Below are positions 44,663-64,000 of a stretch of DNA of 64,000 bases, piece by piece; the first letter of the stretch is position 1, and the number at the start of each line of letters is the position of its first letter. Location of the stretch: positions 1,024,001 through 1,088,000 of the forward strand of contig CBDAOB010000004.1 of NCBI GenBank assembly GCA_965197905.1, read 5' to 3'. A model generated the notes under the pieces. The model worked only from the letters and a program-made list of their open reading frames with translations, was not told where the DNA came from and ran no database searches. This DNA is from Candidatus Latescibacterota bacterium (GTDB taxonomy: Bacteria; Latescibacterota; UBA2968; UBA8231). The position numbers were made by a program, and so were the translations under genes.

Positions 44663-45112
44663 CTAATTCGCCAGTTGCTCCAGCTCGCGAACGAAATCGC
44701 TGCGGTCTTTGAACTGGCGATATACCGAGGCAAAACGCACGTAAGCCACCTCGTTGAGACCGCGCAGATGCTCCATGACCTGCTCGCCGATTTCGTTCGA
44801 TGGGATCTCTTTTTCGTTCATGTTGCCCAGCGCGGTTTCGACGAGATCCACCAGCTCTTCGATCTGGTCGATGGGCACGGTGGTCTTGTAACAGGCTAAG
44901 CGGATCTTCGCCAGCAACTTGCTGCGATCGAAAGGTTCGCGGCGGCCATCGGCTTTGATAACGGTGAGCGGAACATTTTCAATGTATTCGTAGGTGGTGA
45001 AGCGACGGTTACAGTCGAGACATTCCCGGCGCCGGCGAATCGCCATCCCCTCTCGGCAGGAACGTGAATCCACCACCTTGTCATCTTCGTGATTGCAAAA
45101 TGGGCACCGCAT
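44663..45112 (-). CDS. nrdR: Transcriptional repressor NrdR
   Basis: MRCPFC...VVDSR...IRRRRECLDC..RFTTYE, ATP cone, VAYVRFASVY. Confidence 0.98.
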   Translation of the reverse strand: MRCPFCNHEDDKVVDSRSCREGMAIRRRRECLDCNRRFTTYEYIENVPLTVIKADGRREPFDRSKLLAKIRLACYKTTVPIDQIEELVDLVETALGNMNEKEIPSNEIGEQVMEHLRGLNEVAYVRFASVYRQFKDRSDFVRELEQLAN

Positions 45113-45268
45113 CGAGAGACCTCCTGCTGACTGCCCCGATACCGTTGGGCAGAAGCGATGTAGCTGAACGGTCGTTCTGGGGAAAGAGCAGCGGAGCGGG
45201 GATCGTATTCAGAACTGCTTGCTTAGGATAATAAAAACAGCAGGATATGGCAACTCTGCCACGGGCCG

Positions 45269-45919
45269 CTAGTGCAGCTGGAAAGAAATGGGAAGGGTCA
45301 CTTCGACGGAAACGGGGCGGTCGTTCTGCATGGCAGGGGAAAAAACCCACTGCCATATCACCTCGGTTGCGGCTTGATGGAAAACCTCGGGTCCGGTCAC
45401 CCCGAGCACCTTCTTGACCCGACCATCTTTCCCCAGGAGCACCCGGACGAAAACCTTGCCTTCGATATTCGCCTTGCGAGCGATCTCCGGATATTTAGGA
45501 TTGACCGCCTTGATCGCTTTGGGTTGAGACTCGGCCATCCACAGGGGCACCACCTCATCCTCTTCCTCTAGGTCGAGATCAGCCGGGTCGTTCAAGGGCG
45601 GGGGGGGCAGGAGGCCTTCCAGGTCGAGATCCAGATCTGTCGTCTCTATGGTGGCGTCTTCCGGTATATCCAGATCGTCGGAAGCCACCGGAACTACAGG
45701 GCGAGGCGGTGGCGGAGGCCGCCGTTGCTGTGCCGTTTCGGGAATCTGCTCCAGCTGAATGATGATCTGCTGTTGCGGTTTCGAATACGCCTTAAAGTCA
45801 AAACTCGGAAAAACCACAAACAGCAGCGCGTGGAGCAAGACCGACACCCCCATCGAGGTCCACAACAGTTTTCGATACCCGAGCTTCAGATTCGCTTCCG
45901 GTTGTTTGCCGCGGATCAT
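45269..45919 (-). CDS. tonB: TonB energy transducer
   Basis: N-terminal TM with SxxxH, Pro-rich linker, PKYPEIARKANIEGKV...W.F.PA.Q. Confidence 0.92.
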   Translation of the reverse strand: MIRGKQPEANLKLGYRKLLWTSMGVSVLLHALLFVVFPSFDFKAYSKPQQQIIIQLEQIPETAQQRRPPPPPRPVVPVASDDLDIPEDATIETTDLDLDLEGLLPPPPLNDPADLDLEEEDEVVPLWMAESQPKAIKAVNPKYPEIARKANIEGKVFVRVLLGKDGRVKKVLGVTGPEVFHQAATEVIWQWVFSPAMQNDRPVSVEVTLPISFQLH

Positions 45920-46326
45920 TTGTCCTCGCGCCCGGTGGCAAAATTGACCCGCAGCGCTTCTACCTTGCGAAGCTCCTGCAGCACGTCTGAAATCAAACCG
46001 AATTCCGCAGCTCCGTCTGCCTTTATGGAGACGACAACTCGCGGATTTGCGGTGAGTTTTTCGTGTATCCGCCCACCCACCTGATCGAGTCCTATGTTCT
46101 GATCATCGATATTGATGATGCCGGTCGGCCCCACCCAGATGTTGGTGACGTCGCGCCGGCTCTCGAGCTTCTCGACCTTTTCCGCTGTGGGCAGTTCGAC
46201 GGGGATACCGCGGAAACGAACGAAGACAGTCGAAACCATGAAGAAGACCAGCAACAGGAAAGAGATGTCGGCCATCGAGGCCGTGGGGATGGCGCTGGCA
46301 ACTCGGGCTTTGCGTTTGAATCTCAT
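45916..46326 (-). CDS. exbD: ExbD/TolR protein
   Basis: IPTASMADISFLLLVFFMV; IKADG. Confidence 0.93.
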   Translation of the reverse strand: MRFKRKARVASAIPTASMADISFLLLVFFMVSTVFVRFRGIPVELPTAEKVEKLESRRDVTNIWVGPTGIINIDDQNIGLDQVGGRIHEKLTANPRVVVSIKADGAAEFGLISDVLQELRKVEALRVNFATGREDK

Positions 46327-46329
46327 CGC

Positions 46330-46743
46330 CTACTCTTCCGGATTGGCTATGGAGATGCGAGTGGCCCCGGCCAGCTTCAGTTCGTCGAGGACGTCGACGA
46401 ACATGCGATAGCTGGCGCCCCGTTCGGCCTTAAGCGCAATGATCAGCTTCTCGTTCTCGCGCAGGCGGCGCTCGATGTCCGCCTTGAGGGCGCTGAATTC
46501 GATCGTGTTCAGGTTCTCGTTCTCGTAGTAGGCTATCTGGTCCCGGGCGTTGATCCAGACATTGCAGATGTTCTTTTTCCGCACCTCCTTGGTCTCAGCG
46601 ACCGGAGGTAGTTGCAACGACAGCCCCTTGTCCTGGTTCATGGTGGTCGTCACCAGAAAGAAGGCGATAAGGAGGAAAGCGATGTCCGCCATCGACGCTG
46701 TGGGAATATCCGGTCCGACCCGCCGAACCCGTGGTTGCAGCAT
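46330..46743 (-). CDS. exbD: ExbD/TolR protein (second copy)
   Basis: IPTASMADIAFLLIAFFLVTT. Confidence 0.93.
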   Translation of the reverse strand: MLQPRVRRVGPDIPTASMADIAFLLIAFFLVTTTMNQDKGLSLQLPPVAETKEVRKKNICNVWINARDQIAYYENENLNTIEFSALKADIERRLRENEKLIIALKAERGASYRMFVDVLDELKLAGATRISIANPEE

Positions 46744-46752
46744 GGTTGCGCC

Positions 46753-47376
46753 TCAGCCGCTACTCTTCGAGCCAGCGATATCCGCGAGAATATCTACCAG
46801 GGCAGCAGTGTGCTCTTGCATGTCCGAGATGATTCGGTCGATGCGCGAAGCAAACAGGTTGTGGAAGAACTGAATGATGATGCCGACGATGAGTCCGGAA
46901 GCGGTGGTAATCAGTGCTTCGGAGATACCTCCTGCCACTTCGGCCGGAACCACGTCGCCCCGCTGTTTGATCGCTTGGAAAGCGTTGATCATTCCACTGA
47001 CCGTACCCAGAAAACCAACCATGGGGGCGAGGTTGGCGACGGTGGACAGCCATACCATGCCCCGCTCGAGGAATCCCATCTCCACAGCCCCCGAGTTTTC
47101 GATCGCCTTTTCCACATGATCTATGCCGCGCTCCAGCCGCATCAAGCCCGCATGGATCACCGAAGCCACGGGTCCACGGGTTTCCGAGCAAAGCTTGGCG
47201 GCGCTGTCAGGTCCCTCGGAACGCAACGCGTTTTCCAGCTTGCCGAAGAAATCTTCGGCGTCGATGGCGGCGCGTGAGAGGGTTATCCATCGCTCGATGG
47301 TCACGGCGACGCCGAAAATCAACAGAATGAGTAGCGGCCACATAGCCCAACCGCCGTCTTGAAAAAGCTGAATCAT
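46753..47376 (-). CDS. exbB: MotA/TolQ/ExbB proton channel
   Basis: GGWAMWPL, APMVGFLGTVSGMI.AF, AGGISEALITTASGL. Confidence 0.95.
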   Translation of the reverse strand: MIQLFQDGGWAMWPLLILLIFGVAVTIERWITLSRAAIDAEDFFGKLENALRSEGPDSAAKLCSETRGPVASVIHAGLMRLERGIDHVEKAIENSGAVEMGFLERGMVWLSTVANLAPMVGFLGTVSGMINAFQAIKQRGDVVPAEVAGGISEALITTASGLIVGIIIQFFHNLFASRIDRIISDMQEHTAALVDILADIAGSKSSG

Positions 47377-47405
47377 CGTTCCTCCTTCAAATTTCCGTCA
47401 ACCTG

Positions 47406-48605
47406 CTATTTCGATTCGGTATTCTCTTCGGTCTCGCCGTCTCCGAAGAACGCGCGCTTGAGTTTCTCCTCCTCGGTTTCGGGCGGACGTAGATTCCAGA
47501 TTCTCTGCTGGGCGACCCGTTCCCATGACGGATCTTTCTTGGCGATCTCGAACGCTGCTATTGCTTCATCCTCCGCACCTTCCAGGGCCAGCAGGTCACC
47601 GTTCAACAGTTGCAGCCGCGAGTGTTTCGGATCGACACCCAACCCACCGTTCAACAAACGGCGTACCGCGACCCTGTCCCCACCCGTAAGGCGCATCTCC
47701 GCCAATAGCGCCACGCTGTCCAGGTCCTTCGGGTTGGCTTGGACCATGCCCTCAAGACCACGCTGGCGCAACTCGTTTCTGCCTGCCGATTCCGCCATGG
47801 TGGCAATGCGGTTGTAGTAGGCGTAACCGCTCACCGTATCCACCTGGGCCAGGCGCAGCAGAGTTTCGGCGGCAGCGTCCAAGTCCCCAATCTGCTCCTG
47901 CAGGCGGGCCATCGCATCCAGCGATTCTCGCTGATCGGCCGCCGCGACTCCGGACGTATCCGCAAGCAGCTTTTGACGCCATTTTAGCGCCAGAGCCGCC
48001 TGCCCCGACCCTTCGTAGAGCACCGAAATGATCTCCGCCAGCTCGGCATCACCAGGCAGACCGGCGGCGAGTTGGGTGTAATGTGTCAGTGCTCGCTCCG
48101 GGCGGTTCTGGCGGCGGTAGAAGTCAGCCAGCTGGCGCCGGTTGGCGTTGTCTGCCGGCCGCCGTGTGAGAACTCGTTCGAGGCACAACGCCGCCGCGTC
48201 GGCCTCGCCTTGTTCATTCAGGACTCGGAACAGGACCAGGTTTGTATTGACATGCGTAGAATCGAGCTTCAAGGCTGCGGCGAGAGACGCGCGTGCCGAA
48301 GCCGAATCGCGACTCTCGTAGAAGACCCGCCCCAGCCGATAGTGGGCGCGCTGATCGTCCGGCTTGAACTCGAGAAATCGTCGGTAATAATCGATGGCGG
48401 CGGGATAATCCTTCCGATCGCCGGCGGTCTTTGCCAGGAAACGGTATTTCCGGATGGAGTCGGCGACGGTTTCCTGTGCCGCTTCTGCTCCCCAGACGAA
48501 TATGCATGCAACCACCAAAGCCGCGGCATTCAACATGCGTTTCGCGACAGGTTTTTGGGTTCGGAAACCGAGGTTTCTGGGTTGAGCAGGCGTCGGTGAG
48601 TACAT
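47406..48605 (-). CDS. Secreted tetratricopeptide-repeat protein
   Basis: Multiple TPR units (AHYRLG...AL.LD, LA..Y); signal peptide if started at MLNAAALV (about 48537). Confidence 0.8.
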   Translation of the reverse strand: MYSPTPAQPRNLGFRTQKPVAKRMLNAAALVVACIFVWGAEAAQETVADSIRKYRFLAKTAGDRKDYPAAIDYYRRFLEFKPDDQRAHYRLGRVFYESRDSASARASLAAALKLDSTHVNTNLVLFRVLNEQGEADAAALCLERVLTRRPADNANRRQLADFYRRQNRPERALTHYTQLAAGLPGDAELAEIISVLYEGSGQAALALKWRQKLLADTSGVAAADQRESLDAMARLQEQIGDLDAAAETLLRLAQVDTVSGYAYYNRIATMAESAGRNELRQRGLEGMVQANPKDLDSVALLAEMRLTGGDRVAVRRLLNGGLGVDPKHSRLQLLNGDLLALEGAEDEAIAAFEIAKKDPSWERVAQQRIWNLRPPETEEEKLKRAFFGDGETEENTESK

Positions 48606-48662: not shown

Positions 48663-50567
48663 TCACCACCAATCGTAGCCTCCGCCGGTTTCCCCGCGCA
48701 ACGACAGCAGACCCCATAGAATCCGCGACCCGAGCTCCCCGAAAATCAAACCCATGAAGAAAGGTCGTACCCGCTGGTAGGTGGCGGCCCCACCGTAGCG
48801 CACGACGATCATCTTGACGCTCCAGCCCACGAGGGCTGAGCCCCACAACAAGGTGCCGAGACCGGTTCCATATACAAATCCGGCCGGGTGGAACGGAAAC
48901 CGCACGAAAACGAGACGCAGGTAGGAAAGTGCTGCCGCCGCTACGCCACCGAAACCGATGGCCGCCAAGCGGTCCCAATCGGTGCCAGCCGCGCGGGTGC
49001 CGACCTCGGAATAGAGATAATGGTAGTAGCGACCCAGGCGCGCAGCCGAGCGGCCTCCCCCTTGTTGGTCCAGGGTGAAAAGGCCGTGTTCGTACACGAT
49101 GTTTAACAGGGACCACATTCCTGCCACCAAACCCAAGGCGACGCCAAGACCGAGAAGGGTGGCGAGCCCCTGGCGTCCGGTTTTCAGCACCGAAGCCATC
49201 CTGAATCCCTCGAACTGCAGCATGGCGATGGCCCCGATTCCGGTGTAGTTGAGAGCGGTCAGAAAGGCGAGCGCAACATACTCCGAGCGGCTGAACACCC
49301 CCGGTCCAGAGCCGGCGAAAAAGAAGAAGAGGTTCCCCGTCAGGAAATAGATGGCGGTGACCGGCAGGCCGGCGTCCAGACGGAGACGCATCATGCCAAC
49401 CGTCGTCAGCAACAGCAGCGAGAAGTAGAGCGCGCTCAACCAGGCAGGCAATCCTGCGGCGACACCCCAAAAGACCATCAGAGCAAACCCGCCCAGCAGG
49501 AGCCACGCTCCTTTCCCCTCTCGCGCTGCCGCGGCGCATGCGTGACGGGCGCGCCAGAGATAGATTACCGCGAGGGTCAGCAGCGCCCCCCGGGCCTGCG
49601 CCTGTAGATGGGGAAAGAAGTTCGGCCACTCCCTCCACTGAGCGCCTAGACCGACGAAAGAACCGTGGTCGTCGGCGCGCCCGATGAGTTCGGCGTACAG
49701 GAGCTGCAAGCGGCTGCCAAGAAAGAAGAACCAGGTGCTGAAGGAGACCTCCACCGACAGCAGGTAGCTCAGGCCGATCAAGAGCGGCGAGAAATAGAAG
49801 ATGAAGCGGGATTCGAACGGAGCCATCGCCTTCCACGGATCGTCGATGAGGACGGAACGCAGATCGAAGTAATGTGCGATCTCACCGGGGACGAGGAAGA
49901 AATGGTTGATGCCGTTGATTCCGAAGAGAATCACGGGCACCGAAACGCCAAGCCAGAATGCCCTGCCGCGGAGGAGCGCGCCGCCCCGTTCGATCACTTC
50001 CAGAGGTACCTCGGTCAGGGGAAAGCGCAAATGCTCCTGCTCAATCCAGCGTCGATGCAGGAGCATCACCAGACCCAGGAAAGCCGCGAAGAGACTGGCA
50101 ACCAGGACCGACCAGGCGAGAACAGGCACGATCCAGCTGTGCCAGGGTACTGCGGCCGCCCCCTCGAAGAACCCCTCGACGGCGACCGAATCGGACGGGT
50201 CGGGTGTCATCCAGCTGGGGATATGCTTCAAGAAGGGGTGGAAACGCCCGCTTTGGTCGGCGTAGGAATACGGTCCGGTTACCAATCCTGCCAGCAGGTA
50301 TTGCGCCCATCCGGTGGACGCCAGGGGCAGGGCGATGGCGAGCAACAGATAAAAGGCCAGTAGCTCCCGGCGGTCGAAGCGCAACCACCGCCCCAGGACC
50401 ACCGACGCCAACAGAACTACGGACAGGAGGAGCAGCGGCAAGGGCGGCAATGCGCCCGTCGCCAGGGAGGGCCCGCCGTAGACAAGCTCGACCCGCTGTA
50501 GCAGCCAGGAGCCGCCAACGGTCGCCAGAAGGGCGAAGACCAGCACCCGCATGCTGAGGTATCGCAT
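48663..50567 (-). CDS. Multi-pass membrane protein (DUF6785/DUF6784-like, OPT-related)
   Basis: Many TM helices; VPWHSW..P...W, W.EQEHLRFPL..VP, FPFHPAGF, K..VVRYGG...Y.RVRPFFMGLI.G. Confidence 0.75.
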   Translation of the reverse strand: MRYLSMRVLVFALLATVGGSWLLQRVELVYGGPSLATGALPPLPLLLLSVVLLASVVLGRWLRFDRRELLAFYLLLAIALPLASTGWAQYLLAGLVTGPYSYADQSGRFHPFLKHIPSWMTPDPSDSVAVEGFFEGAAAVPWHSWIVPVLAWSVLVASLFAAFLGLVMLLHRRWIEQEHLRFPLTEVPLEVIERGGALLRGRAFWLGVSVPVILFGINGINHFFLVPGEIAHYFDLRSVLIDDPWKAMAPFESRFIFYFSPLLIGLSYLLSVEVSFSTWFFFLGSRLQLLYAELIGRADDHGSFVGLGAQWREWPNFFPHLQAQARGALLTLAVIYLWRARHACAAAAREGKGAWLLLGGFALMVFWGVAAGLPAWLSALYFSLLLLTTVGMMRLRLDAGLPVTAIYFLTGNLFFFFAGSGPGVFSRSEYVALAFLTALNYTGIGAIAMLQFEGFRMASVLKTGRQGLATLLGLGVALGLVAGMWSLLNIVYEHGLFTLDQQGGGRSAARLGRYYHYLYSEVGTRAAGTDWDRLAAIGFGGVAAAALSYLRLVFVRFPFHPAGFVYGTGLGTLLWGSALVGWSVKMIVVRYGGAATYQRVRPFFMGLIFGELGSRILWGLLSLRGETGGGYDWW

Positions 50568-50579
50568 TAACTCACCACG

Positions 50580-52547
50580 TCAAAAAGGGAACTGGGCAAC
50601 CGACCTGGTTATGAGAACGATCGCAACGGCAGCCATACCTGTTATTCCATTGCCGCAGGCGAAACCGGCCAAAAGAACAGGGGCATACTGGCGCCACTTG
50701 ATATCGCCGAAGCGGCGGGCGAAATAATAGCGGCCCAGGCAGGCCCCCAGCATCTCGGGAATCAGCAAATGCGGCAGACTCTGCAGGCCGCGAACGAAAC
50801 CGTAGACCAGCGAGACCGGCAACCCCCAACCCGCCAGCAGCCACAGACCGGCCAGGGCCCCACCAAGCCCTCCCAGCACCCACGGAAGTTTCACCACCTC
50901 GATGAACTCCAGGTTGCCGCCGGTAGTAAAGGAAAACCACATGAACTGACGCAGCGCCAGCAAATGCCAGTACTTCTGCGCGTATGGAAAAGCCATGGAC
51001 GGTATGGGTCCCATACGCCAAATCAGCGACCAGAACAGCAAGCCGCACCCCAGCGCGAGCGGCAGAATGAACAGCTCCGCTTTGGCAATGCTGGTGAATC
51101 TGGTTCCGGTAAGCTCGACTTCGCGGAACAGTTGCGCCCGGCGACCATGGTCGTCGTACGGAATGGGAGCGAACCAGATGTCGACCCCGCGATAACCGCT
51201 CAACAGAAAGGCCCCTTCGCGAACTAGAGGAATGCCGACGGTCTGTCCCGTGAGCCCCGACATGCGAGCGTTGGCATAGGAGAGCAGTGGAGTGACGACA
51301 AAGGCGAACCCCAGCAGAAAGACGAGGGGGAAGTGGTCGTCCTGCAACAGCCACAGGCACAGGGCTACGTAAGCCGTGGCGGGCCCGACGTAGAGCAAAA
51401 CCGCGAGCCACATGGGGAAATCGCCGCGCCCCGACGGGGTCTTCAACGCTTTGAGCCCACCCCCGCGGTACTCGTTCAACGCCCGAACCGCGTAGATGAG
51501 TCCGGTAATACCCACCGCAGCGCCGGTGCCGATGTAGACACTCATCCAGACATCCAGATCGTTGCTGAAGTGAGTGAGCACCGTGTCCATCCCGGGCCGC
51601 CACCGCGGCAGATGACCCAGATGGAAGAGCAAAGGATTCGCCAGCATCTGCACCAGGGAGGCCGCGAACCCGCCCACGACCACCCAGAAGGGCAGCACGA
51701 ATCCCACTAGGACCAAACCGAGATCAGTGGAGATGCCGATCGGGGTGGCCGGCAGCAGATGCTCCAGTTCCCGGGTCAGATCTATCCACGGAATGGGCAG
51801 AAGAACGATGGGCCGGCTGGCGATCAGACTGGTAAGCGCAGGCAACGCGATGAACAAGGCGCCAAACAACAGGCCGATCCCCATGCCTACGGAGAAGACA
51901 TGCCAACGCCAGCTTTCGCGCCCGGAACCGCTCTCCGCCAAGGCCATGGCCCCTTGTGCGGCGACCGGAGCTAGGGGAAAGGGTAGCTTCTCCACATCGG
52001 AGGTGAGTCGGAACAGTAGATAACCGAGCCCGAACCATTCGGCCCGCGCCAATACCTGCCCCAGTACCAGTAGTGCGATAGGTACCACCCAGTCGGAGTG
52101 GAAAAACGTTCGGCCCGCCAGCGCCGCGGAATCCGCTGCCGGCACCACCCAGCTCGGGATCTGCTCGGCGATCCCGAGGGCCTGACCCACCTGGGACTGC
52201 ACCAAATACTGGTACCAGATCAACCCTCCCAGGGGTCCTCCGGCGAGCATGACGCCACCCAGGACGTGAGTCAATCCGCCGGCGATGTAGTAGATCAGGT
52301 AGATCTCCTGTCGCCGTAACGGGGTGAACGCGCGCCTGGCCATCTCCGCGAACAGGATGACCGTGACCCATTCCGCCGCCGCCCCCATGCTGGTCCCGGC
52401 GATGAGCCCCATGTAAATGGCACCGGGCATCATCAGGAAGCCGATGAATAGCGCCCCGAGAGCGGCGCGCCACGTCATGCCCTCCTCGAATTCGGGAGGA
52501 GGCTGCATGAGTTCCCGGTAAGCTTCGAAATCCTGGGAACGTTTCAA
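50580..52547 (-). CDS. OPT-like multi-pass 'peptide transporter'
   Basis: FEEGMTWRAALGALFIG, TSDVEKLPFPLAPV, YAPVLLAGFACG.G; TTG start overlaps the upstream TGA (TTGA). Confidence 0.75.
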   Translation of the reverse strand: MKRSQDFEAYRELMQPPPEFEEGMTWRAALGALFIGFLMMPGAIYMGLIAGTSMGAAAEWVTVILFAEMARRAFTPLRRQEIYLIYYIAGGLTHVLGGVMLAGGPLGGLIWYQYLVQSQVGQALGIAEQIPSWVVPAADSAALAGRTFFHSDWVVPIALLVLGQVLARAEWFGLGYLLFRLTSDVEKLPFPLAPVAAQGAMALAESGSGRESWRWHVFSVGMGIGLLFGALFIALPALTSLIASRPIVLLPIPWIDLTRELEHLLPATPIGISTDLGLVLVGFVLPFWVVVGGFAASLVQMLANPLLFHLGHLPRWRPGMDTVLTHFSNDLDVWMSVYIGTGAAVGITGLIYAVRALNEYRGGGLKALKTPSGRGDFPMWLAVLLYVGPATAYVALCLWLLQDDHFPLVFLLGFAFVVTPLLSYANARMSGLTGQTVGIPLVREGAFLLSGYRGVDIWFAPIPYDDHGRRAQLFREVELTGTRFTSIAKAELFILPLALGCGLLFWSLIWRMGPIPSMAFPYAQKYWHLLALRQFMWFSFTTGGNLEFIEVVKLPWVLGGLGGALAGLWLLAGWGLPVSLVYGFVRGLQSLPHLLIPEMLGACLGRYYFARRFGDIKWRQYAPVLLAGFACGNGITGMAAVAIVLITRSVAQFPF

Positions 52548-55500
52548 GCCAGCCTGCCCATTTGCAGATACGGCGAGCGGGTGGCGGGCGTCAGAGATCG
52601 CCACACCAGAAACTGTTTTCGCAACTGATTCAGCAGCAGCTTGTTGGACCGCAACCAGGCAGATCGATCGCCCGAGCGGCGCACCATGACCGCCTCTATG
52701 GCGAAGAACCGCGCCCCCACTTCGGCCACCGGATGCAACTCGAACTCCTGAGACAGTCCCTGGTCGAAGGGGGCCAGCCACAGGCGCGCCCTCAGGAGGG
52801 GCACTGGATGGCTGGAGGGTTCTGCGACGGTGCGATTGGGCGCCACATCACTGGATTCGAGCTCGGTTTCTTCGGCATAGAAGAGGGCACCGATCGACTG
52901 TTCCGTATGCCCTTCTAGAAATTCCGAGATGAAAACGACGAGACCCGCAGCCTCGTTGCGGGAGAGCGCGAACGGCATGGGCACAGACAGGGTATCTCCG
53001 TCCGCAGGGGGCAGGCGCCACGAGCGCTCGATGCCCGGCACGCATATGCGGGCAGCTTCGCGGGCCGGATAGAGGGTCGACAGCAGCACCACCACCGCCA
53101 CGGCGGCCGTGGTCGCCACGGCAGACAGTGAGGAGTAATTGACGGTGAGGCCGGGAAACATGCCGAAGAGCAAACCGAGCTTCGCTACGGACTGTCCCAG
53201 GAGGTAACCCAGGGCACTGCTGATTACGGCGTAAACGACAGCTTCGGCGAGGAAGAGTCCCCCCACGTGCATCGGCGCGAGCCCAATGGCATTCAAGGTG
53301 CCGATATCGCCGACCCGTTCGTGCACCGAGCCCAGCATGGTGTTGAAGACGATAAGTGCCGCGACCAGAATTGGTACCCAGATACCCGGCCGACCGGTAA
53401 ACGCCTGCACGCCGGCGGTGTTTATGAGGTACCTCGAACCTCCGTTGACGGCGAACAGATTCAAGCTGATTTCCTGCGCTAGGTCGTGGGCTGCCCGGTT
53501 CCCTTTCCGCGTCGAAACAGCCACCGATGTCATGCGCGATTTCTCCCCCCACCGCCGCACCACCTCGAAGGGTAGAATCAGCACCCCCGCGCTTTCCAGG
53601 TGCGCAAACGCCGATTGAATCTCCGACGACCCGCGCCCGATCATCCTCTCGGCAGGCTGGTGGGTTTCCTGATCCAGGGGGGTGAGCGGTCCCCCGCTGA
53701 CATCCCGCAGTTGATCAAAAGTCCGGGGATCGAAGAAGCCGATCACGCTAAATTCCGTGCCCAAAAAGCGAATCGATTCCTTGCCTACCGTCCTTGTGGT
53801 CAGGCCGAGCTTGTCCGCCATCCCGGTGCTGACGAGACACACATCCTCCTCGTCCTCAGAGAACCAGCGGCCGGCGACCAAGGTTTTGTCGACTGCTGTG
53901 ATCAATGGTTCATTAGGCATCAACCCGAGTGTCCCATTCACACGCGCCCAACGGGCACCGTATTCGGCAGTTGCCGGCGCCACGTACCAGGCGCGCGCCG
54001 CCGTGGACGCCCGACCGAAACGCGACCGCAATATCTCTAAGACCCTGTGTTCCAGCGCCTCCCATCCCGGGTTCCTGACCAAGAGAGCATCGCCGTGCTC
54101 CGCCGGTCCGATCGGGGTTTCGTTGTAACGCACCGCCTCGCGTATGGAGGTGAACGAAAGCATCGAAAAAGTCAGCAACACGAGTGTGAGCGACGTCAAC
54201 GCGGTGCGCAACGGGCGGCGGCGTAGCTGACCTATGCCCATAAGGAGCGCGCGGAATAGCAAGCCCGTGCGGTCGGTGTCGTCGCGATGGGCAGCCCGGC
54301 GGGCGACGGAAGATCGCAGCTGCGCGTTCAGTCGAGAGATTCCCATAACGGCCACCAACAGACTCAAGGCGAGGATGAGAAACCCCAATAGAATCACCAA
54401 CGGAAAGATGCTCAGCTGAAAGGCCGGATGTAGGTACCGAAGCAGAAAGAAGGCGATCAAGAAGATCCCCAGCGCCCCGAGCACCTGCTGGCGAAGTTGG
54501 GCGCTTTCGAGCAAGAGACGCTCGCCGAAATAGGCAACCGGCAGCAGCAGGAACAGGAAAAACAGGACCCCTTGGACGACGTCCAACGTCAACCCCTGTA
54601 CCCCGTTGTAGGTCCGTGAGGCATGGGTTCGGGCTTTGTTGGTCAAATCTGAATAGCGGTCGTAGCGCCTCGCCGTCAACGCCCCTCTCGCGCGCGTCAG
54701 AAGAGACTCGGTAGCGGTGTGCGCACGCTCCAGAAGCGGGCTATTGATACCATGCCGGCGCAGATTCCATAGCCGTGCCGCGTTCAGCTCGTAGGTGTCG
54801 GTCGCGATCTGCAAACCGGTCCGATGGAGACGCGGATTCTGCGCCGCAGCGAAACCGGAACCGGTCGGCTGCTTCCAACTGCCGTTGAGCAGGAGCAGCG
54901 CTCGACCTATGCGGAACCGGCCGCCGGTCATGGTAAATTTAGCGGCGACTCCCGGTGGCAAAAACGCAACTGCCACTTGCTCCACGCCACTTCCGGCGCT
55001 GTTGAAGTATCCTCGCGTTTCGATTTCGTCTGGGGATGCCGTGGTCGAGAAGCCGAAGTTGGCCGGTCGTGAATCTGAACGGGCGTCTAAGATTTCCAGG
55101 TGTTCCAGCGTCTTCATGCTCAACGGATCGAAGGTGTCGAAAAGGGTGATCGGTTGACACCAGAACCCGACCAGGGTGAGCTCCTTCTCCAGCAGGTCCA
55201 TCCGGATCTCGTTGGGGTACTGCTGGACTCCAAGCGGGCCGTGATCCAGAGCGAAGTTCAATTCACCTGTACGGTCGTCAGTGCGAAACATCTCCAGTTG
55301 AATCGGCTTGAGGTACAGGGTGCGGGCTTCGACGCCTGCGAACGAGAAGCGGCCTTCTCCATCGCTCAGCGCGAGCGGATCCATACGCACTCCCATAATG
55401 ACATGATGGCGGGTGCGGACCCGAACGAGGGCACCCTCTATAGGCAGGTTTGGGCCATACGCCTCTGCCCCCCACGTGAGCGCTCGCCCTTGGACGGTGC

Positions 55501-56995
55501 CGAAGGAATCTTTGCGTGGATCGATCTGGGTTCCGGCGGTTGGATCGCCCAACAGTTGAATCAGCAGTGAACCAAGGAACTCCGTCTGCTCTTCGAGCTG
55601 CTCCAGATCGACCAAGTGCGGGAGATCCAACGGCGAGTCGAAAGCATTCCTCATGTCGCCGGCTGTGACAAAGGTCAGGCCCAGATACCCGGCGAGGTTT
55701 ACCACCGCGCCCTGCACCGGAATCTGCTCTGGTACGGCTCCAAGCAGCCCCCGCTCACGGTGCGGTTTTAGTTCGCCGCCCAGGATCAGCCTCCCCTGGC
55801 GCCGTTCGCGTTCGTAACGATCGGCGAACCTCTCGATAGCGTCGTAGATGGGAGGCCGAATCTTGCGCACCCTGTAGGGCGATCCTGCTTGCATCAGCCC
55901 GATCCTGCTGCCATGGCTGCTGAGATCGATGCCCACGTAATAGGCCAGTTCGAGGTCGTCGAACCCATCGCCCAGGGCGGACAACCCCTCGCGACGCACG
56001 GCACCGATCAGGTCGCGCATGCCTGCAAGGCTTTGAAAATGTCCCGGCGTTGCGGCGAGAATGACGGTTCGCGGCAGACGCTCGCCCTGCAGAACCCTGG
56101 CGATCTCGAGCCACGCGGCCACCCCGGAGGCCTGCTCGGCACCCGGAGAAATCGCGGGAATCGGAGAAATTGCATCGTAATAACACCCCACCATAACCGC
56201 CTCGCCGCGAAGCTGTGGATCAGTGCCTGGAAGCAGGGCGACTACCGTTGTCGCCGGAGCCTCCTGCCAGGTCATCTTCCCTTTCAGTCGAACCCCGGCA
56301 GCACCTTGTTTGGCGAGGTCGCGCAACCGGATGGCCTCTCTTCCCCTTGCATAAAATCGGGGCAGATCCGCTGGCGTGGTCAGAAACTTAAGCGCCCCCT
56401 CCTTGCGGTGAGTACGGGATGGTTCCAGGAAAATGACCGCCCGGGCGCCGAGGTCGAAAGCCGAAATCCAATCTGACCCGCAGTTGTATTCGAGCACAAG
56501 AATTGCGTCGCCGAGGGCCAGGCCATCCAGCTCTCCTTGACGCGCATTGCCGCCGTAAAGCAAGGGAGCTTGGATGCCGGAGGGAGGCAGGGTCGAGGTT
56601 CGGGCAAGGTTTGGCCAGACGTGATGGAGTTGAATGCGGTTGGCCGAGCGCTGGCGGTCCGCGGGGGAATCGTGTTTGTCCGCAGGAGATTCCAGCTCGA
56701 GATAAGCGCCGTGATCCATAGGTACCGGGACCACGAAGCTGCGGCGACGGACGTCGACTATTCCAGCGGCTGCCAACTGGTTTTCCAGGTACTCTGCAGC
56801 CCGCACAGCGCCGGGATATCCGGTGGTTCTAGAGCCATTTGCGGAGAGGAACTGAATGTGATCGCCAAGCGACGCACCCCAGGCCGGCGGAGCGAAGGCA
56901 GCGGCCGTGAGCCCCGCAACAGCTGCCAGAAGAAGCACCAGCTCTTGACAGTTTAGCCTGCCAAAGGCGAAGTTTTTATTCGACTTACAGTTCAT
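52544..56995 (-). CDS. Fusion of a PA/M28-peptidase-like domain with a TM bundle, MacB periplasmic domain and FtsX permease
   Basis: Signal peptide; SRTTGYPG..AA.YL, PG.D..L.GEAV.V..YYD, ASGVAA.LE.AR; LRRRPLRTALT; NTMLGSVHER..DIG.L.AIGL.P......FLAEA FtsX motif. Confidence 0.85.
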   Translation of the reverse strand: MNCKSNKNFAFGRLNCQELVLLLAAVAGLTAAAFAPPAWGASLGDHIQFLSANGSRTTGYPGAVRAAEYLENQLAAAGIVDVRRRSFVVPVPMDHGAYLELESPADKHDSPADRQRSANRIQLHHVWPNLARTSTLPPSGIQAPLLYGGNARQGELDGLALGDAILVLEYNCGSDWISAFDLGARAVIFLEPSRTHRKEGALKFLTTPADLPRFYARGREAIRLRDLAKQGAAGVRLKGKMTWQEAPATTVVALLPGTDPQLRGEAVMVGCYYDAISPIPAISPGAEQASGVAAWLEIARVLQGERLPRTVILAATPGHFQSLAGMRDLIGAVRREGLSALGDGFDDLELAYYVGIDLSSHGSRIGLMQAGSPYRVRKIRPPIYDAIERFADRYERERRQGRLILGGELKPHRERGLLGAVPEQIPVQGAVVNLAGYLGLTFVTAGDMRNAFDSPLDLPHLVDLEQLEEQTEFLGSLLIQLLGDPTAGTQIDPRKDSFGTVQGRALTWGAEAYGPNLPIEGALVRVRTRHHVIMGVRMDPLALSDGEGRFSFAGVEARTLYLKPIQLEMFRTDDRTGELNFALDHGPLGVQQYPNEIRMDLLEKELTLVGFWCQPITLFDTFDPLSMKTLEHLEILDARSDSRPANFGFSTTASPDEIETRGYFNSAGSGVEQVAVAFLPPGVAAKFTMTGGRFRIGRALLLLNGSWKQPTGSGFAAAQNPRLHRTGLQIATDTYELNAARLWNLRRHGINSPLLERAHTATESLLTRARGALTARRYDRYSDLTNKARTHASRTYNGVQGLTLDVVQGVLFFLFLLLPVAYFGERLLLESAQLRQQVLGALGIFLIAFFLLRYLHPAFQLSIFPLVILLGFLILALSLLVAVMGISRLNAQLRSSVARRAAHRDDTDRTGLLFRALLMGIGQLRRRPLRTALTSLTLVLLTFSMLSFTSIREAVRYNETPIGPAEHGDALLVRNPGWEALEHRVLEILRSRFGRASTAARAWYVAPATAEYGARWARVNGTLGLMPNEPLITAVDKTLVAGRWFSEDEEDVCLVSTGMADKLGLTTRTVGKESIRFLGTEFSVIGFFDPRTFDQLRDVSGGPLTPLDQETHQPAERMIGRGSSEIQSAFAHLESAGVLILPFEVVRRWGEKSRMTSVAVSTRKGNRAAHDLAQEISLNLFAVNGGSRYLINTAGVQAFTGRPGIWVPILVAALIVFNTMLGSVHERVGDIGTLNAIGLAPMHVGGLFLAEAVVYAVISSALGYLLGQSVAKLGLLFGMFPGLTVNYSSLSAVATTAAVAVVVLLSTLYPAREAARICVPGIERSWRLPPADGDTLSVPMPFALSRNEAAGLVVFISEFLEGHTEQSIGALFYAEETELESSDVAPNRTVAEPSSHPVPLLRARLWLAPFDQGLSQEFELHPVAEVGARFFAIEAVMVRRSGDRSAWLRSNKLLLNQLRKQFLVWRSLTPATRSPYLQMGRLA

Positions 56996-57045: not shown

Positions 57046-57633
57046 ATGAAGCTTCTCAGTTCGGGAGAAAACCAGCGCATCCGGCGCATCGTCGACGGCG
57101 ACGAGCGGGCTTTCCAGTCGCTTATCCGCGATTACTACCCGCTGGCCTATAACCTGGCGTGCAAAATGCTGAGCAACCGTCAGGATGCCGAGGAAGTCGT
57201 CCAGGATGCGTTTGTCAAGATTCGCGAAGCCCTGGACAGCTTCCGGGGCGACGCGTCGCTGAAAACGTGGATCCTGCGCATCGTCATGCGGCTGAGCTTG
57301 AACCGGCGCCGCGATCGCTCCCGCAGTTCGTGGAACCGCATGGGTCTGCACAAAGTAGCAACAGTGGAGGAGGAAGAAGCGGCAGATTCGCCAAAGGTGC
57401 AGCAGAGCCCGGAGGCAGAGTTGATTTCGCGGGAGACAGGAGAACGCGTTCTGGCATTGATCGATGAGCTACCCGAGCCGTTGCGTCAGGCGCTTGTTCT
57501 CAACAGCATTGACGAGTTGTCGTACGAGGAAATCGGGCGCATTTTGCGAATCCCGCTCGGAACCGTCAGCTCGCGCATCTACGCAGCCCGAAGAAAGCTG
57601 GCTAAAAAACTGCAGGAACATGATCTACTCTAA
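57046..57633 (+). CDS. ECF sigma-70 factor
   Basis: GDERAFQSL, DAEEVVQDAFV, SLKTWI.RI, LSYEEI..IL.IPLGTV.SRI..AR. Confidence 0.93.
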   Translation: MKLLSSGENQRIRRIVDGDERAFQSLIRDYYPLAYNLACKMLSNRQDAEEVVQDAFVKIREALDSFRGDASLKTWILRIVMRLSLNRRRDRSRSSWNRMGLHKVATVEEEEAADSPKVQQSPEAELISRETGERVLALIDELPEPLRQALVLNSIDELSYEEIGRILRIPLGTVSSRIYAARRKLAKKLQEHDLL

Positions 57634-57714
57634 CGATTTTTGCGTTGGGTCGCGAGTTGAGCGGGGGCGATTTCTCACCCGACGAGCACCCGACAGCACC
57701 CTCGGAGGGAATCG

Positions 57715-58071
57715 ATGAAATTGCCGTGGCGAAGAGATGCGGACGGGCACAGGATCTCCGCTTATTTGGACGGCGAGTTAGACCAGGCGGAAGAGGTCGA
57801 TCTTGCGGATCGGTTGGTGTTCGACCAGAACTTGCGAGAGAGAATGGCTGAGGTGAGACAGGCGGACGCGCTGGCGGTCGCGGCCCTTGCCGTCGATCAT
57901 GTGCCCGACCCCACAACGATCGCCGAGAAGCTGATAGCGGATATCGACGCGACTCCGGTGGCACTTTCAGCGTCCGCCCGTAACCTCAAACCTGCCCTTT
58001 ACGCCTCGGTAGGGATTTTGATCACGGTGGGAATCACCTTCGTCGGCCTGCGGCGACGGGGATTGGTCTGA
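57715..58071 (+). CDS. Putative membrane anti-sigma factor
   Basis: ISAYLDGELD anti-sigma N-terminus without an HxxxCxxC motif, C-terminal TM; follows the ECF sigma gene. Confidence 0.75.
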   Translation: MKLPWRRDADGHRISAYLDGELDQAEEVDLADRLVFDQNLRERMAEVRQADALAVAALAVDHVPDPTTIAEKLIADIDATPVALSASARNLKPALYASVGILITVGITFVGLRRRGLV

Positions 58072-61311: not shown

Positions 61312-61584
61312 ATGGATGACGTATCCGTTCTCCGGGAGCTGGAAAACCTGGCGGATGAGCTCGACTTAGAAATTCGTTACGAAACCATCGAGGGGAGTGG
61401 TGGTTTGTGTCGTGTTGGAGATAGACGATGCCTCATCCTGAACAGATCCTCGTCGCCGAACCAACTCGTTCGCGTACTCAGCCTGGCGCTGAGCCGCTTT
61501 CCCCTGGAAGATGTTTTCATCAACCCGCACGTGAGAGAGCTTCTGCAGGAGCGGGCGGGTCGGTCTCTCTTGAAGGCGTCGTAG
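61312..61584 (+). CDS. Conserved small hypothetical protein
   Basis: LE.LA..L..EIRYE...GGLCRV...ILN...LEDVFI.P.VRELL. Confidence 0.7.
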   Translation: MDDVSVLRELENLADELDLEIRYETIEGSGGLCRVGDRRCLILNRSSSPNQLVRVLSLALSRFPLEDVFINPHVRELLQERAGRSLLKAS

Positions 61585-61685
61585 TTTCTTCACGGAGCGA
61601 GACTGACCTCTCTGTTGACAGAGGAATTCTCTGCTGCGCCGCGCGCCCCCTTTCGCCTGAGAACCGCGAAGGAATCAAAAAGCCG

Positions 61686-64000
61686 ATGTTGCGCCCTTTG
61701 ATCTCATTGGCGGCGTTCTGCTGCCTGCTCGTCGCCCATCCCACGGATGCTCTGCGGTTCTACGTCGACGGTACGCCGGCGGTCAACGATACCACATCGC
61801 CTGTCGGCGACGACCGCCGCAGCGTCCAGAGTGCGCAGGTTTCTTCGACTCCGCTCAAAACCATAACCCAGGCCCTGAAGCTGGCACATCTGATCTCGGA
61901 AGGCCGTCCCCACGTCATCCAGATCGCGCCAGGCACCTATTCTCCAAGTCGGGGCGAGACGTTTCCGTTGGTGGTGACCGATCCGAACGTCTTCATGGAA
62001 ACGACGGGATTGACCGTTTTCGATGCCGAAGGCCTCACCAATCACCTCGAGATCACCGCCGCCACGCCCGATTTTCTTTTAAACGGAATCGACTTCGTAA
62101 ACGGCTTGTCTGACAGCGGCGGCGTCGTCCAGGCGAAAACCTGCTCGTTGCGGGTGGTAAACTGCCGCTTCTTCGATAACCGCGCGACCGCTGCGGGTCA
62201 CGTGATCTACTCGAAAGACGGCCGGCTTCGGTTCTTCAACAATGTTCTGCGCAACAACGGTGGTTTCGAGGACACCACAGCCGTCATCGAGATTCATCAC
62301 ACCTTCGCCGACACCAGCCAAAGGGACCAGATCCGGAACAATACGTTCTACCGGAATTCGGCGCCGGCGATCGAGTCGTCTGGAAATCGCACGGATATAA
62401 GCAACAACATCTTCCTCGATCCGGGCTCTCCCGCACTGCGCGATCTGTCTACGGCAGAGGATCCGCTGTTGCGCTACAATCTGTTTTGGGAAGCGAATGT
62501 ACTCTACATCTCCGACAAGTCGGACACCGTACAGATCGCCAAGGCCTCCTTCGACACCTTGCAGTTTTCCGAAGTGGGAATATCCGTACCGTCCTTCGTA
62601 ACCATAGCCCCGCCCGTCAAAACCCTGCTGGCGATTGTCGACACGGTTACTCTCGAAGAGTTGGGACTGCGAGTCCCAGCGTTTGTGACCAATGTTCCCG
62701 ACACCCTCGGCACGGTGAATCAAAACTACAGCTATACGATCTCGGTGTCGGGCGACTCCAGCCTGTACGGATTCAAAGGGGTCACTCTACCGTCGACCGT
62801 ATCGTCGCAAACCCTGGAGCAGAACCGGCGAATCGAATGGACTCCAACGCTCAACGACACCGGACGGACCCAGATCAAGGTCGAGATTACCGCCCCAGGA
62901 GGAGCCGTCGACACACTCGAGTATCCGGTGGCGGTTTTCACGGTGCCTAACTTTCCGGACACGACTGTCTTTATTCCGGTGTTGAACGATACGGGACGCA
63001 CTATCGGGATGGCGACCGAAGACATCCGTATCGAGGTGCCGCATACGGCGGGAGAGAGCTACAACTTCAGGATTGAGGTGGAGGGCAACCGATCGGCCTA
63101 CAACTTCAACCCGCTGATCCTGCCGGCGGGTGTCTCCAGCTCCGACGTTGACAATCTCGGAGAGATCAACTGGGCGACGACGCTTGCCGATACCGGCAGC
63201 AACCAGATTCAGGTGGAAATCATAGATCCCACCGGCAATCTCGGTACTTTGGACTACAAGGTGCGGGTGTTCTCGAGCGCGACCTTTCCCGATACCAGCC
63301 TGAAGGGGGATGTCATAACGGCGACGGTCGTTCAGGACACCACCAGTGCCATTAATTCGCTGAACGCTTTGATTCCCAGTTTCTCATCCGCAGCAAGTGC
63401 GGGGGGCAACCTTTTCGCCAATCCGGCCTTCCTCGACACCACCATCAACCGCTTCGAGCTGGTGGTGGGATCGCCGGCCATTGACGCTGGAAACCCCGTG
63501 GTTGCCGTTCAGGACGGGACTGTAAATCGGAACAACATTGGCAACGATGGCGGGCCCACCCATGCGGGTGCGCCGACTCCCGGCACCTTCTCCGAGCTAA
63601 AAGTCACCTCCCTGCCCGACAGCTTGGCTACGGAGGGCGTGGCCTACAACTTCGACGTGACCTTGGACCCCAGCACCAGCATCAATCTGGTCGACCTGCT
63701 TCAGGGGCCACCGACCATGGCAGCCGCGTTCGGCCAAAAACCTCCGATCCAATGGACACCAACCATAGCAGACACAGGCACGTTTCAGGTGGGAATCATC
63801 GTCTTCACCAACAGTGGCCAGGGACGGCAGTACTATCCGATTCGCGTTCGGCCCCTCAATAACAACCCGGTTATCGGCAGCAACCCCGATCTGTCCGCTT
63901 TCGAGGATTCGCTCTATACCTACTCACTGTCGGCCACCGACGCCAACGGAGACACCCTTTCCTTCTCCCTCGTCGACGGTCCCCAGGCAATGACGGTGGA
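61686..64000 (+). CDS. Large secreted surface protein: DUF1565/right-handed beta-helix plus cadherin/He_PIG-like Ig repeats (partial, runs off window)
   Basis: Manual translation, open to the end: signal peptide, PLKTITQAL...IAPGTYS...GETFPL, NNTF..N, GSPAIDAG, W.PT..DTG repeats, ATDANGDTLSFSLVDGP. Confidence 0.88.
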   Translation, partial: MLRPLISLAAFCCLLVAHPTDALRFYVDGTPAVNDTTSPVGDDRRSVQSAQVSSTPLKTITQALKLAHLISEGRPHVIQIAPGTYSPSRGETFPLVVTDPNVFMETTGLTVFDAEGLTNHLEITAATPDFLLNGIDFVNGLSDSGGVVQAKTCSLRVVNCRFFDNRATAAGHVIYSKDGRLRFFNNVLRNNGGFEDTTAVIEIHHTFADTSQRDQIRNNTFYRNSAPAIESSGNRTDISNNIFLDPGSPALRDLSTAEDPLLRYNLFWEANVLYISDKSDTVQIAKASFDTLQFSEVGISVPSFVTIAPPVKTLLAIVDTVTLEELGLRVPAFVTNVPDTLGTVNQNYSYTISVSGDSSLYGFKGVTLPSTVSSQTLEQNRRIEWTPTLNDTGRTQIKVEITAPGGAVDTLEYPVAVFTVPNFPDTTVFIPVLNDTGRTIGMATEDIRIEVPHTAGESYNFRIEVEGNRSAYNFNPLILPAGVSSSDVDNLGEINWATTLADTGSNQIQVEIIDPTGNLGTLDYKVRVFSSATFPDTSLKGDVITATVVQDTTSAINSLNALIPSFSSAASAGGNLFANPAFLDTTINRFELVVGSPAIDAGNPVVAVQDGTVNRNNIGNDGGPTHAGAPTPGTFSELKVTSLPDSLATEGVAYNFDVTLDPSTSINLVDLLQGPPTMAAAFGQKPPIQWTPTIADTGTFQVGIIVFTNSGQGRQYYPIRVRPLNNNPVIGSNPDLSAFEDSLYTYSLSATDANGDTLSFSLVDGPQAMTV

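What the first reader, a model, noticed from the sequence alone, without database searches (positions are those of the whole stretch)
55600..56880. The M28 domain of the fusion looks catalytically dead
Seen versus the canonical M28 motifs: AHYD reads CYYD (His lost), PGADDNASG reads PGAEQASG (Asp lost), GEE reads PGHF (catalytic Glu and metal Glu lost), and YHT..D reads FDSPLD (His lost). Only the LD-type Asp (GIDLS) is retained. Known precedent: nicastrin and the transferrin receptor use inactive M28 folds as ligand-binding ectodomains. Inference: this is a bacterial pseudo-peptidase receptor domain.
Basis: partly seen in the sequence, partly recalled or inferred. Interest (0 to 1): 0.75.

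Follow-up and report, generated by a model that had tools for sequence, protein, structure and literature searches.

The report
Remodelled peptidase head on ABC machine
The outer domain of a 1,483-residue membrane protein has the fold of a zinc aminopeptidase but has lost the two-zinc active site in every relative examined, while keeping a rebuilt, conserved pocket that likely serves to capture cargo for an unstudied ATP-driven membrane machine of uncultured bacteria and archaea.

Summary
Observation confirmed, with two corrections. All five motifs are present, and the domain is a confident PA-insert M28 fold (pLDDT 92; Z 31 to B. subtilis aminopeptidase). Among 235 family domains, none keeps the catalytic Glu, the metal Glu or the last His, and 46 keep the first His. 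The classical di-zinc peptidase is gone family-wide.

The pocket is rebuilt, not decayed. The bridging Asp aligns to Glu287 and the last His to Asp453. His319 replaces the general base in 228 of 235, the same swap as the 'functional E151H' aminopeptidase mutant (PDB 2ANP). A single metal, or unusual chemistry, is therefore not excluded.

The domain heads a MacB/Lol-type permease. An OPT-like or DUF6785 partner lies nearby in 21 of 21 loci. The likely motor is a mini-FtsX plus ATPase pair encoded elsewhere in this genome; it co-occurs with the fusion in 131 of 151 genomes and shares its operon in some. Best reading: cargo-capture head of an importer, not a signalling receptor. Transferrin receptor and GPAA1 are closer analogues than nicastrin. 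This scan noted the same system earlier on other genomes; my paper searches found no description.

The parts
52544..56995 (-). Giant fusion gene, 1483 aa: signal peptide, PA-M28 head, two beta domains, helical bundle, extra TM helices, MacB/FtsX-type permease, C-terminal cytoplasmic domain
56876..56995 (-). Probable signal peptide (aa 1-40; hydrophobic stretch aa 14-32), so the head is predicted periplasmic
   Evidence: sequence; hydropathy; inference
55526..56881 (-). M28 peptidase-fold head with PA insert (aa 39-490)
   Evidence: AlphaFold2 pLDDT 92.2, pTM 0.93; Z 31.2 to 6hc6; Z 28.2, rmsd 2.4 over 256 residues to Aeromonas aminopeptidase
56231..56752 (-). PA (protease-associated) insert, about aa 82-255; more conserved than the core (mean identity to the query 0.46 for aa 91-245 vs 0.39)
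56174..56182 (-). Y272-Y-D274: first His ligand replaced by Tyr (family Y164/H46/F13 of 235); D274 is 99% conserved
56132..56137 (-). E287-Q288: bridging-Asp position, Glu or Asp in 210 of 235; one-residue deletion in 235 of 235
56036..56041 (-). H319-F320: general-base Glu replaced by His (228 of 235); metal Glu replaced, never Glu (0 of 235)
55925..55927 (-). D357, the only canonical ligand kept (Asp or Glu in 222 of 235)
55625..55657 (-). D447-x-R449...D453-S-P-L-D457: family-specific Asp and Arg (220 and 227 of 235) before the last-His position, which is Asp (194), Gly (23), never His
53036..54268 (-). MacB/LolC-type module: TM1, periplasmic core domain, FtsX TM domain with the segment that aligns to the MacB coupling-helix region
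   Evidence: profile E 1.8e-16 to MacB 5lil; Foldseek E 4e-11 to MacB; Z 13.9 to YtrF; 'coupling helix' label recalled
50580..52547 (-). OPT-like polytopic membrane partner; probable TTG start overlapping the fusion's TGA stop (ORF as listed runs from 52781)
48663..50567 (-). DUF6785/DUF6784 membrane protein, second partner, homologous to the OPT-like gene
   Evidence: Pfam E 1.3e-90; hhalign probability 89.6 to the OPT-like family

Best explanation
The domain is an M28 peptidase fold that has lost the two-zinc aminopeptidase site throughout its family and likely works as the periplasmic cargo-capture head of an ATP-driven, MacB/Lol-type membrane machine. Shown: fold, loss of the canonical ligands, conservation of a rebuilt pocket (His319, Asp357, Asp447, Arg449, mostly Glu287 and Asp453), fusion to a type VII ABC permease, constant pairing and occasional fusion with OPT-like/DUF6785 permeases, and operon linkage in some genomes to a mini-FtsX and a LolD-like ATPase. 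Inferred: the giant and the mini-FtsX pair up as the two halves of the permease; the single motor pair per genome serves several giants; the head binds an acidic solute (Arg and His, possibly through one metal ion) without cutting it; ATP-driven movement hands the solute to the OPT-like partner for import. The cargo is a guess: sugar-acid oligomers from the gene context, or a peptide from the PqqD-like partner.
For: Loss of site: 0 of 235 catalytic Glu, metal Glu or last His; no member keeps more than 3 of 5 ligands. Pocket under constraint: H319 96%, R449 94%, D357 93% among 137 representatives, against a median column of 44%. First His toggles with Tyr about 15 times on the tree, so it is dispensable. 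No compensation among ligand-capable residues (variance 0.66 vs 0.73 +/- 0.08 shuffled), which gives no support to a fixed alternative metal site. Precedent: GPAA1 has the same fold, lacks the zinc motif, and mutating candidate ligands had no effect (PMC9098846, passages read). Machine: OPT-like or DUF6785 gene within 20 kb in 21 of 21 loci, fused in frame in 2 (also P0146). Strong mini-FtsX orthologue in 131 of 151 genomes, all with the giant; 7 giant-only genomes are all under 90% complete; 13 genomes of one family lack both. Giant, mini-FtsX and ATPase lie together in 2 of 20 genome loci; a giant lies beside the mini-FtsX in 8 of 80 metagenome loci, and in the 5 of 24 long loci (8 kb or more) the ATPase is there too, in three gene orders. 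DUF6785 neighbours include rhamnosidases, UxuA, enolase-type dehydratases and oxidoreductases, and no Pfam peptidase family at E 1e-8 among 93 ORFs.
Against: His at the general-base position is more conserved than a dead site needs, and matches a mutant whose PDB entry is titled 'functional' (2ANP). Four ligand-capable residues remain in 173 of 235. I had no model coordinates, so pocket geometry is inferred from alignment only. Type VII ABC systems known to me export, extract or signal rather than import (recalled). OPT kinship of the partner is weak by sequence: 1 of 17 members at Pfam E 0.17, hhalign probability 6, no PDB hit, though a paralogue passes the OPT cut-off. Sugar-gene enrichment was chosen after looking and is only 2-4-fold for most families (P 0.02-0.03). 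The co-occurrence rests on one lineage lacking both genes. An S41 protease lies beside the mini-FtsX in 10 of 20 loci, which fits protein processing as well.
Confidence: 0.5

Rival explanations
1. The head is still an enzyme of a non-canonical kind: one metal held by E287, D357 and D453 or H319, with H319 as general acid/base, which trims or modifies the cargo before transport.
For: H319 in 228 of 235; acid287 + H319 + acid357 in 195; with acid453 in 173. Five members, one of them labelled Thermoprotei, keep His, Asp, Asp of one full subsite. PDB 2ANP title calls the E151H enzyme functional. Mono-zinc glutaminyl cyclases share the fold (Z 25; their single-zinc site is recalled).
Against: E287 is non-acidic in 25 of 235 and D453 is not Asp in 41; 7 members lack H319; 7 of 137 representatives have two or fewer ligand-capable residues, no fewer than shuffled. 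The E151H mutant keeps all five zinc ligands (alignment and recall); this protein keeps one. The two terminal ligands of the glutaminyl cyclase zinc (Glu, His; recalled) are exactly those lost in all 235.
Confidence: 0.2
2. The head binds a protein or envelope component, as transferrin receptor and GPAA1 do, and the machine exports, extracts or anchors envelope proteins instead of importing solutes.
For: Nearest solved permeases are MacB, LolCDE, YtrF, HrtB. A PqqD-like domain lies beside the mini-FtsX in 5 of 20 genome loci and 14 of 80 metagenome loci, and an S41 protease in 10 of 20 and 12 of 80. The PA insert and invariant N129, K203, R213, Q470 lie outside the old metal site by sequence. 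GPAA1 is proposed to recruit protein substrates (PMC9098846).
Against: About 40 DUF6785 ORFs in one genome (38 and 42) beside catabolic genes look like many solute specificities. S41 linkage is missing from the two complete operons.
Confidence: 0.22
3. The head is a sensor: ligand binding signals through the membrane to the divergently encoded ECF sigma factor and anti-sigma factor.
For: ECF sigma and zf-HC2 anti-sigma genes lie immediately upstream on the other strand; the arrangement recurs in L001, L041, L042, L060.
Against: Absent from the other 17 of 21 loci; not seen beside the two paralogues in this genome (ORF lists); the four loci are close orthologues, so this is inherited gene order.
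Confidence: 0.05

Closest known systems
PA-insert M28 aminopeptidases (Aneurinibacillus AM-1 2ek8, B. subtilis YwaD/BSAP 6hc6, P. aeruginosa PaAP; Aeromonas AAP and S. griseus SGAP cores)
   Same: Fold and PA insert: Z 31.2 (6hc6), 28.9 (2ek8), 28.2 (AAP, rmsd 2.4), 26.8 (SGAP); profile E 1.6e-20.
   Different: Four of five zinc ligands and the catalytic Glu are changed; one-residue deletion in the bridging-Asp loop; fused to a membrane permease.
Transferrin receptor 1 ectodomain (inactive M28 with apical PA-like domain)
   Same: Same two-domain head (Z 25.1, 391 aligned, rmsd 7.2); non-catalytic binding role in uptake (recalled).
   Different: Eukaryotic single-pass receptor taken up by endocytosis; no ABC module; 15-16% identity.
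GPAA1 of GPI transamidase
   Same: M28-like luminal domain without the zinc motif on a polytopic membrane protein in a multi-subunit machine (Z 20.0; PMC9098846 passages).
   Different: Unrelated membrane domain; no conserved His at the base position shown; no ATPase.
Nicastrin and nicalin
   Same: Inactive M28 fold (recalled); weak profile matches, nicalin E 3e-5 and nicastrin E 0.004.
   Different: Far weaker than active enzymes; Pfam PF05450 finds no match in this genome.
Type VII ABC transporters (MacB, LolCDE, FtsEX, YtrEF, HrtBA, YbbAP)
   Same: TM1, periplasmic core domain and FtsX domain; LolD-like ATPase beside a second FtsX-type subunit.
   Different: About 900 extra N-terminal residues with a pseudo-peptidase head; partner subunit has almost no periplasmic domain; motor often in trans; OPT-like partners.

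Membership tests
M28 di-zinc peptidases | M28 alpha/beta catalytic fold | tested here: met
M28 di-zinc peptidases | Five zinc ligands His, Asp, Glu, Asp/Glu, His | tested here: not met
   1 identical (D357), 2 swapped for other acids, 2 lost; at most 3 of 5 in any of 235 members
M28 di-zinc peptidases | General-base Glu of the Glu-Glu motif | tested here: not met
   His in 228, Glu in 0 of 235
M28 di-zinc peptidases | Zinc binding and peptide hydrolysis | not testable with these tools
   needs purified protein
Mono-zinc glutaminyl cyclases (M28 fold) | Asp, Glu, His zinc site (recalled) at the positions of E287, F320, D453 | tested here: not met
   Glu and His absent in 235 of 235
Nicastrin family (PF05450) | Match to the family profile | tested here: not met
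   0 matches at E 0.1 in this genome, 4 candidates scored
Nicastrin family (PF05450) | Structural closeness to nicastrin or nicalin above active M28 enzymes | tested here: inconclusive
   lists show only the top 50
Type VII ABC permeases | TM1 + periplasmic core domain + FtsX three-TM domain | tested here: met
Type VII ABC permeases | Cognate ABC ATPase | tested here: inconclusive
   none in the window; candidate in trans, operonic with the giant in other genomes; binding untested
OPT/YSL transporters (partner gene) | Match to PF03169 or OPT fold | tested here: inconclusive
   paralogue over cut-off, 27.8 bits on a 96-position stretch; this protein no Pfam hit; Atlas neighbour 15% OPT; partner not folded

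The most novel reading that the evidence does not exclude
A family-wide re-engineered M28 pocket (Glu to His base, His to Asp, added Arg) is the cargo-capture site of a new class of ATP-driven importer in bacteria and archaea, in which one MacB/Lol-type motor (mini-FtsX plus ATPase) is shared by several giant heads and dozens of OPT-like permeases, much as ECF transporters share an energiser. It would be a type VII ABC system that drives uptake, and the main nutrient-import route of Latescibacterota.
Probability: 0.3. Interest if true: 0.85.

Novelty: new variant of a known kind. Interest (0 to 1): 0.57.

Why it matters
Inactive M28 domains are well known in eukaryotic membrane machines (transferrin receptor, nicastrin, GPAA1). 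Here one is the conserved head of a prokaryotic machine present in 138 of 151 sampled genomes of the phylum, with relatives labelled Planctomycetota, Armatimonadota, Desulfobacterales, Hydrogenedentes and Thermoprotei. Databases name many of these proteins 'M28 family peptidase', which would inflate peptidase counts for these uncultured groups. The conserved pocket gives a short list of residues to mutate, and a member from a named species (Desulforhopalus singaporensis, P0409) offers a handle for experiments. Pseudo-enzymes as such are common, so the interest lies in the rebuilt pocket and the machine.

Tried and rejected
Sequencing error or recent decay: rejected, the substitutions are family-wide. 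Special kinship to nicastrin or nicalin: not supported; neither appears in the top 50 of three fold lists, and I had no sequences of them for a tree, so it is not excluded. GPI-transamidase kinship: the middle part matched PIG-S at Z 10.2 over 80 residues, level with designed three-helix bundles; treated as a common arrangement. TonB/ExbBD coupling and iron uptake: the TPR gene follows in 4 of 21 loci and ExbBD-TonB in 3, and a promoter-like site (11 of 12) lies just before the TPR gene; treated as local gene order. Compensating metal ligands: no signal. A Ser-His-Asp triad (S277 or S359 with H319) was considered but cannot be judged without coordinates. Complex prediction of the giant with the mini-FtsX was not available, so that pairing is untested. 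Expression data were not obtained. The E151H paper (doi 10.1021/bi0505823) and a nicastrin structure paper were not held: I saw only the PDB title and reference-list titles. Paper searches with no description of the system: M28+FtsX+peptidase+OPT, 0 papers; DUF6785, 0; DUF6784/PF20581/PF20580, 0; some searches gave listings only, none on this system by title or abstract start. The library lacks most subscription journals. The tree has weak deep support, so I draw no order of events from it.

Full report
What is there. The finding lies in the 5' part of one minus-strand ORF, 52544-56995, 1483 aa. Pfam gives Peptidase_M28 (aa 251-318) and FtsX (aa 1209-1316). All five quoted motifs are in the sequence. 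The only named close locus is a Ca. Latescibacterota MAG, 87% identical. An AlphaFold2 model of aa 39-490 from a 96-sequence alignment is confident (pLDDT 92.2, pTM 0.93). It matches PA-insert aminopeptidases best (6hc6 Z 31.2, rmsd 5.5, 375 aligned; 2ek8 Z 28.9) and the Aeromonas and S. griseus cores at rmsd 2.2-2.4. A model of aa 491-1483 (pLDDT 87.5) shows two beta-rich domains, a helical bundle, extra TM helices, a MacB-type module (Foldseek E 4e-11 to MacB; Z 13.9 to YtrF) and a C-terminal alpha/beta domain; the beta domains and the C-terminal domain were barely tested by those searches.

The active site across the family. I pooled 259 proteins from two searches and the three copies in this genome, kept the 235 that cover the whole core (27 dropped as partial) and aligned them with two intact M28 proteins of the same genome. 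Counts: first His, H in 46, Y 164, F 13; bridging Asp, Asp or Glu at 287 in 210; general-base Glu, 0, with His in 228; metal Glu, 0; third acid, 222; last His, 0, with Asp in 194 and Gly in 23. No member keeps more than three of five ligands. The controls score 5 and 4; the missing one is an alignment gap, since that protein's sequence has the His. All 235 are one residue shorter than the controls between A286 and E297. So the classical two-zinc peptidase is gone in the whole family. The role of each position (ligand or base) is established M28 knowledge, recalled, and agrees with passages read in PMC4320195 and PMC3426542.

The pocket is rebuilt, not decayed. Among 137 representatives under 60% identity the median column is 44% conserved, but D274 is 99%, S277 97%, H319 96%, R449 94%, D357 93% and D447 89%. 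H319 sits exactly where PDB 2ANP carries its 'functional Glutamate 151 to Histidine' change; I could not read that paper. E287, H319, D357 and an acid at 453 occur together in 173 of 235. Five members keep His, Asp and Asp of one subsite; one of them is labelled Thermoprotei. Against a required metal: 25 members lack the acid at 287, 7 lack H319, the first His changes about 15 times on the tree, and ligand-capable residues show no compensation. GPAA1 is a caution for reading leftover acids as a site: mutating six candidates had no effect (PMC9098846, passages). My estimate: not a canonical peptidase 0.93; no catalysis at all about 0.75.

Context. Two membrane genes follow at once: an OPT-like gene whose probable TTG start overlaps the fusion's stop and a DUF6785/6784 gene. 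The two are homologous (hhalign 89.6%, controls under 1%). Their link to true OPT transporters is weak here (Atlas). In 21 loci (one, 20 chosen by me across families's top rows) an OPT-like gene was present in 16 and DUF6785 alone in the other 5, in-frame fused in 2; P0146 is such a fusion. ECF sigma (4 of 21) and ExbBD-TonB (3 of 21) are confined to close orthologues. The family is in 138 of 151 phylum genomes, 1-11 matches each; the 13 without are one family.

The motor. No ABC ATPase lies in the window, and a close one in only 1 of the 21 loci (L059). The genome has an orphan pair at G000:C4:1906391-1907922: a mini-FtsX of about 229 aa with almost no periplasmic part and a LolD-like ATPase. 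Strong orthologues occur, one per genome, in 131 of 151 genomes, all of which have the giant; 7 have the giant only (60-89% complete) and 13 have neither. These genomes are kin, so this is one loss, not a statistic. Stronger: in 2 of 20 mini-FtsX loci the order is giant, OPT-like, 336-aa protein, PqqD-like, mini-FtsX, ATPase, and 8 of 80 metagenome loci (5 of 24 at 8 kb or more) hold a giant, in three gene orders. In this genome one paralogue operon ends with the 336-aa and PqqD-like genes.

How it likely works. Shown: anatomy, lost site, conserved pocket, partners, operon links. Inferred: giant and mini-FtsX form an asymmetric MacB/Lol-type permease; the periplasmic head binds cargo in the old active-site cleft; ATP turnover moves the head and passes cargo to the OPT-like partner. 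Three giants, three OPT-like genes and about 40 DUF6785 ORFs against one motor pair suggest a shared energiser. Among 93 ORFs flanking DUF6785 genes in 20 regions, sugar-acid and glycan enzymes are frequent and no peptidase family appears at E 1e-8, but enrichment over background is modest and was chosen after looking. The PqqD-like and S41 neighbours point instead to peptides or proteins. Direction and cargo remain open.

Comparison and verdict. It works like transferrin receptor or GPAA1 (an M28 fold used for binding) on a type VII ABC body. It is not a member of the active M28 enzymes or glutaminyl cyclases by ligand test, nor of the nicastrin family by profile. Earlier notes of this scan describe the same machine on other genomes, including the motor in trans. 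The first set came before my motor search, and one note pointed to an ATPase elsewhere; they are not independent support. New variant of a known kind; interest 0.57.

Noticed in passing
G000:C4:1906391-1907922 (L061:4392-5923): Orphan mini-FtsX plus LolD-like ATPase, single copy and 48-99% conserved across the phylum; candidate shared motor; preceded by an S41 protease gene.
   Followed up: yes
L095:1689-4598, L096:9397-12363, L105:8046-14049, L108:9147-12026, L109:2582-5533 and others: A family of about 980-aa proteins with apparent signal peptides and almost no Pfam match, about 64 members in the genome, enriched beside DUF6785 genes (8 of 93 vs 1.2 expected); possible outer-membrane or surface partner.
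   Followed up: partly
G000 whole genome: 42 ORFs of the DUF6785 family, several split into two frames (e.g. C4:499274-501289, C5:849138-851281, C5:2463813-2465829).
   Followed up: partly
L001:9941-14322: The closest orthologue of the fusion is split into two frames (766 + 865 aa), probably an assembly frameshift.
   Followed up: no
window 44663-48605 (-): TPR, ExbB, two ExbD, TonB and nrdR genes follow the operon, with a promoter-like site at 48643-48614 (11 of 12 consensus matches).
   Followed up: partly
window 57046-58071 (+): Divergent ECF sigma factor and zf-HC2 anti-sigma factor, kept only in the closest orthologous loci.
   Followed up: partly
L062:2213-3569 (-): A 336-aa protein with no Pfam match and a stand-alone PqqD-like gene, single copy, part of the complete operon in other genomes.
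   Followed up: partly
P0221 (2451 aa): A family member carrying N-terminal LysM domains in front of the pseudo-peptidase head, which hints at cell-wall or glycan binding.
   Followed up: no
P0110, P0113-P0117, P0119, P0120: A clade, some labelled Desulfobacterales, in which D357 is His, 288 is Glu and 453 is Gly: a different pocket, with two His and two acids.
   Followed up: partly
window 61428-64000 (+): Long open-ended ORF that looks like a secreted beta-helix and Ig-repeat protein (by eye).
   Followed up: no
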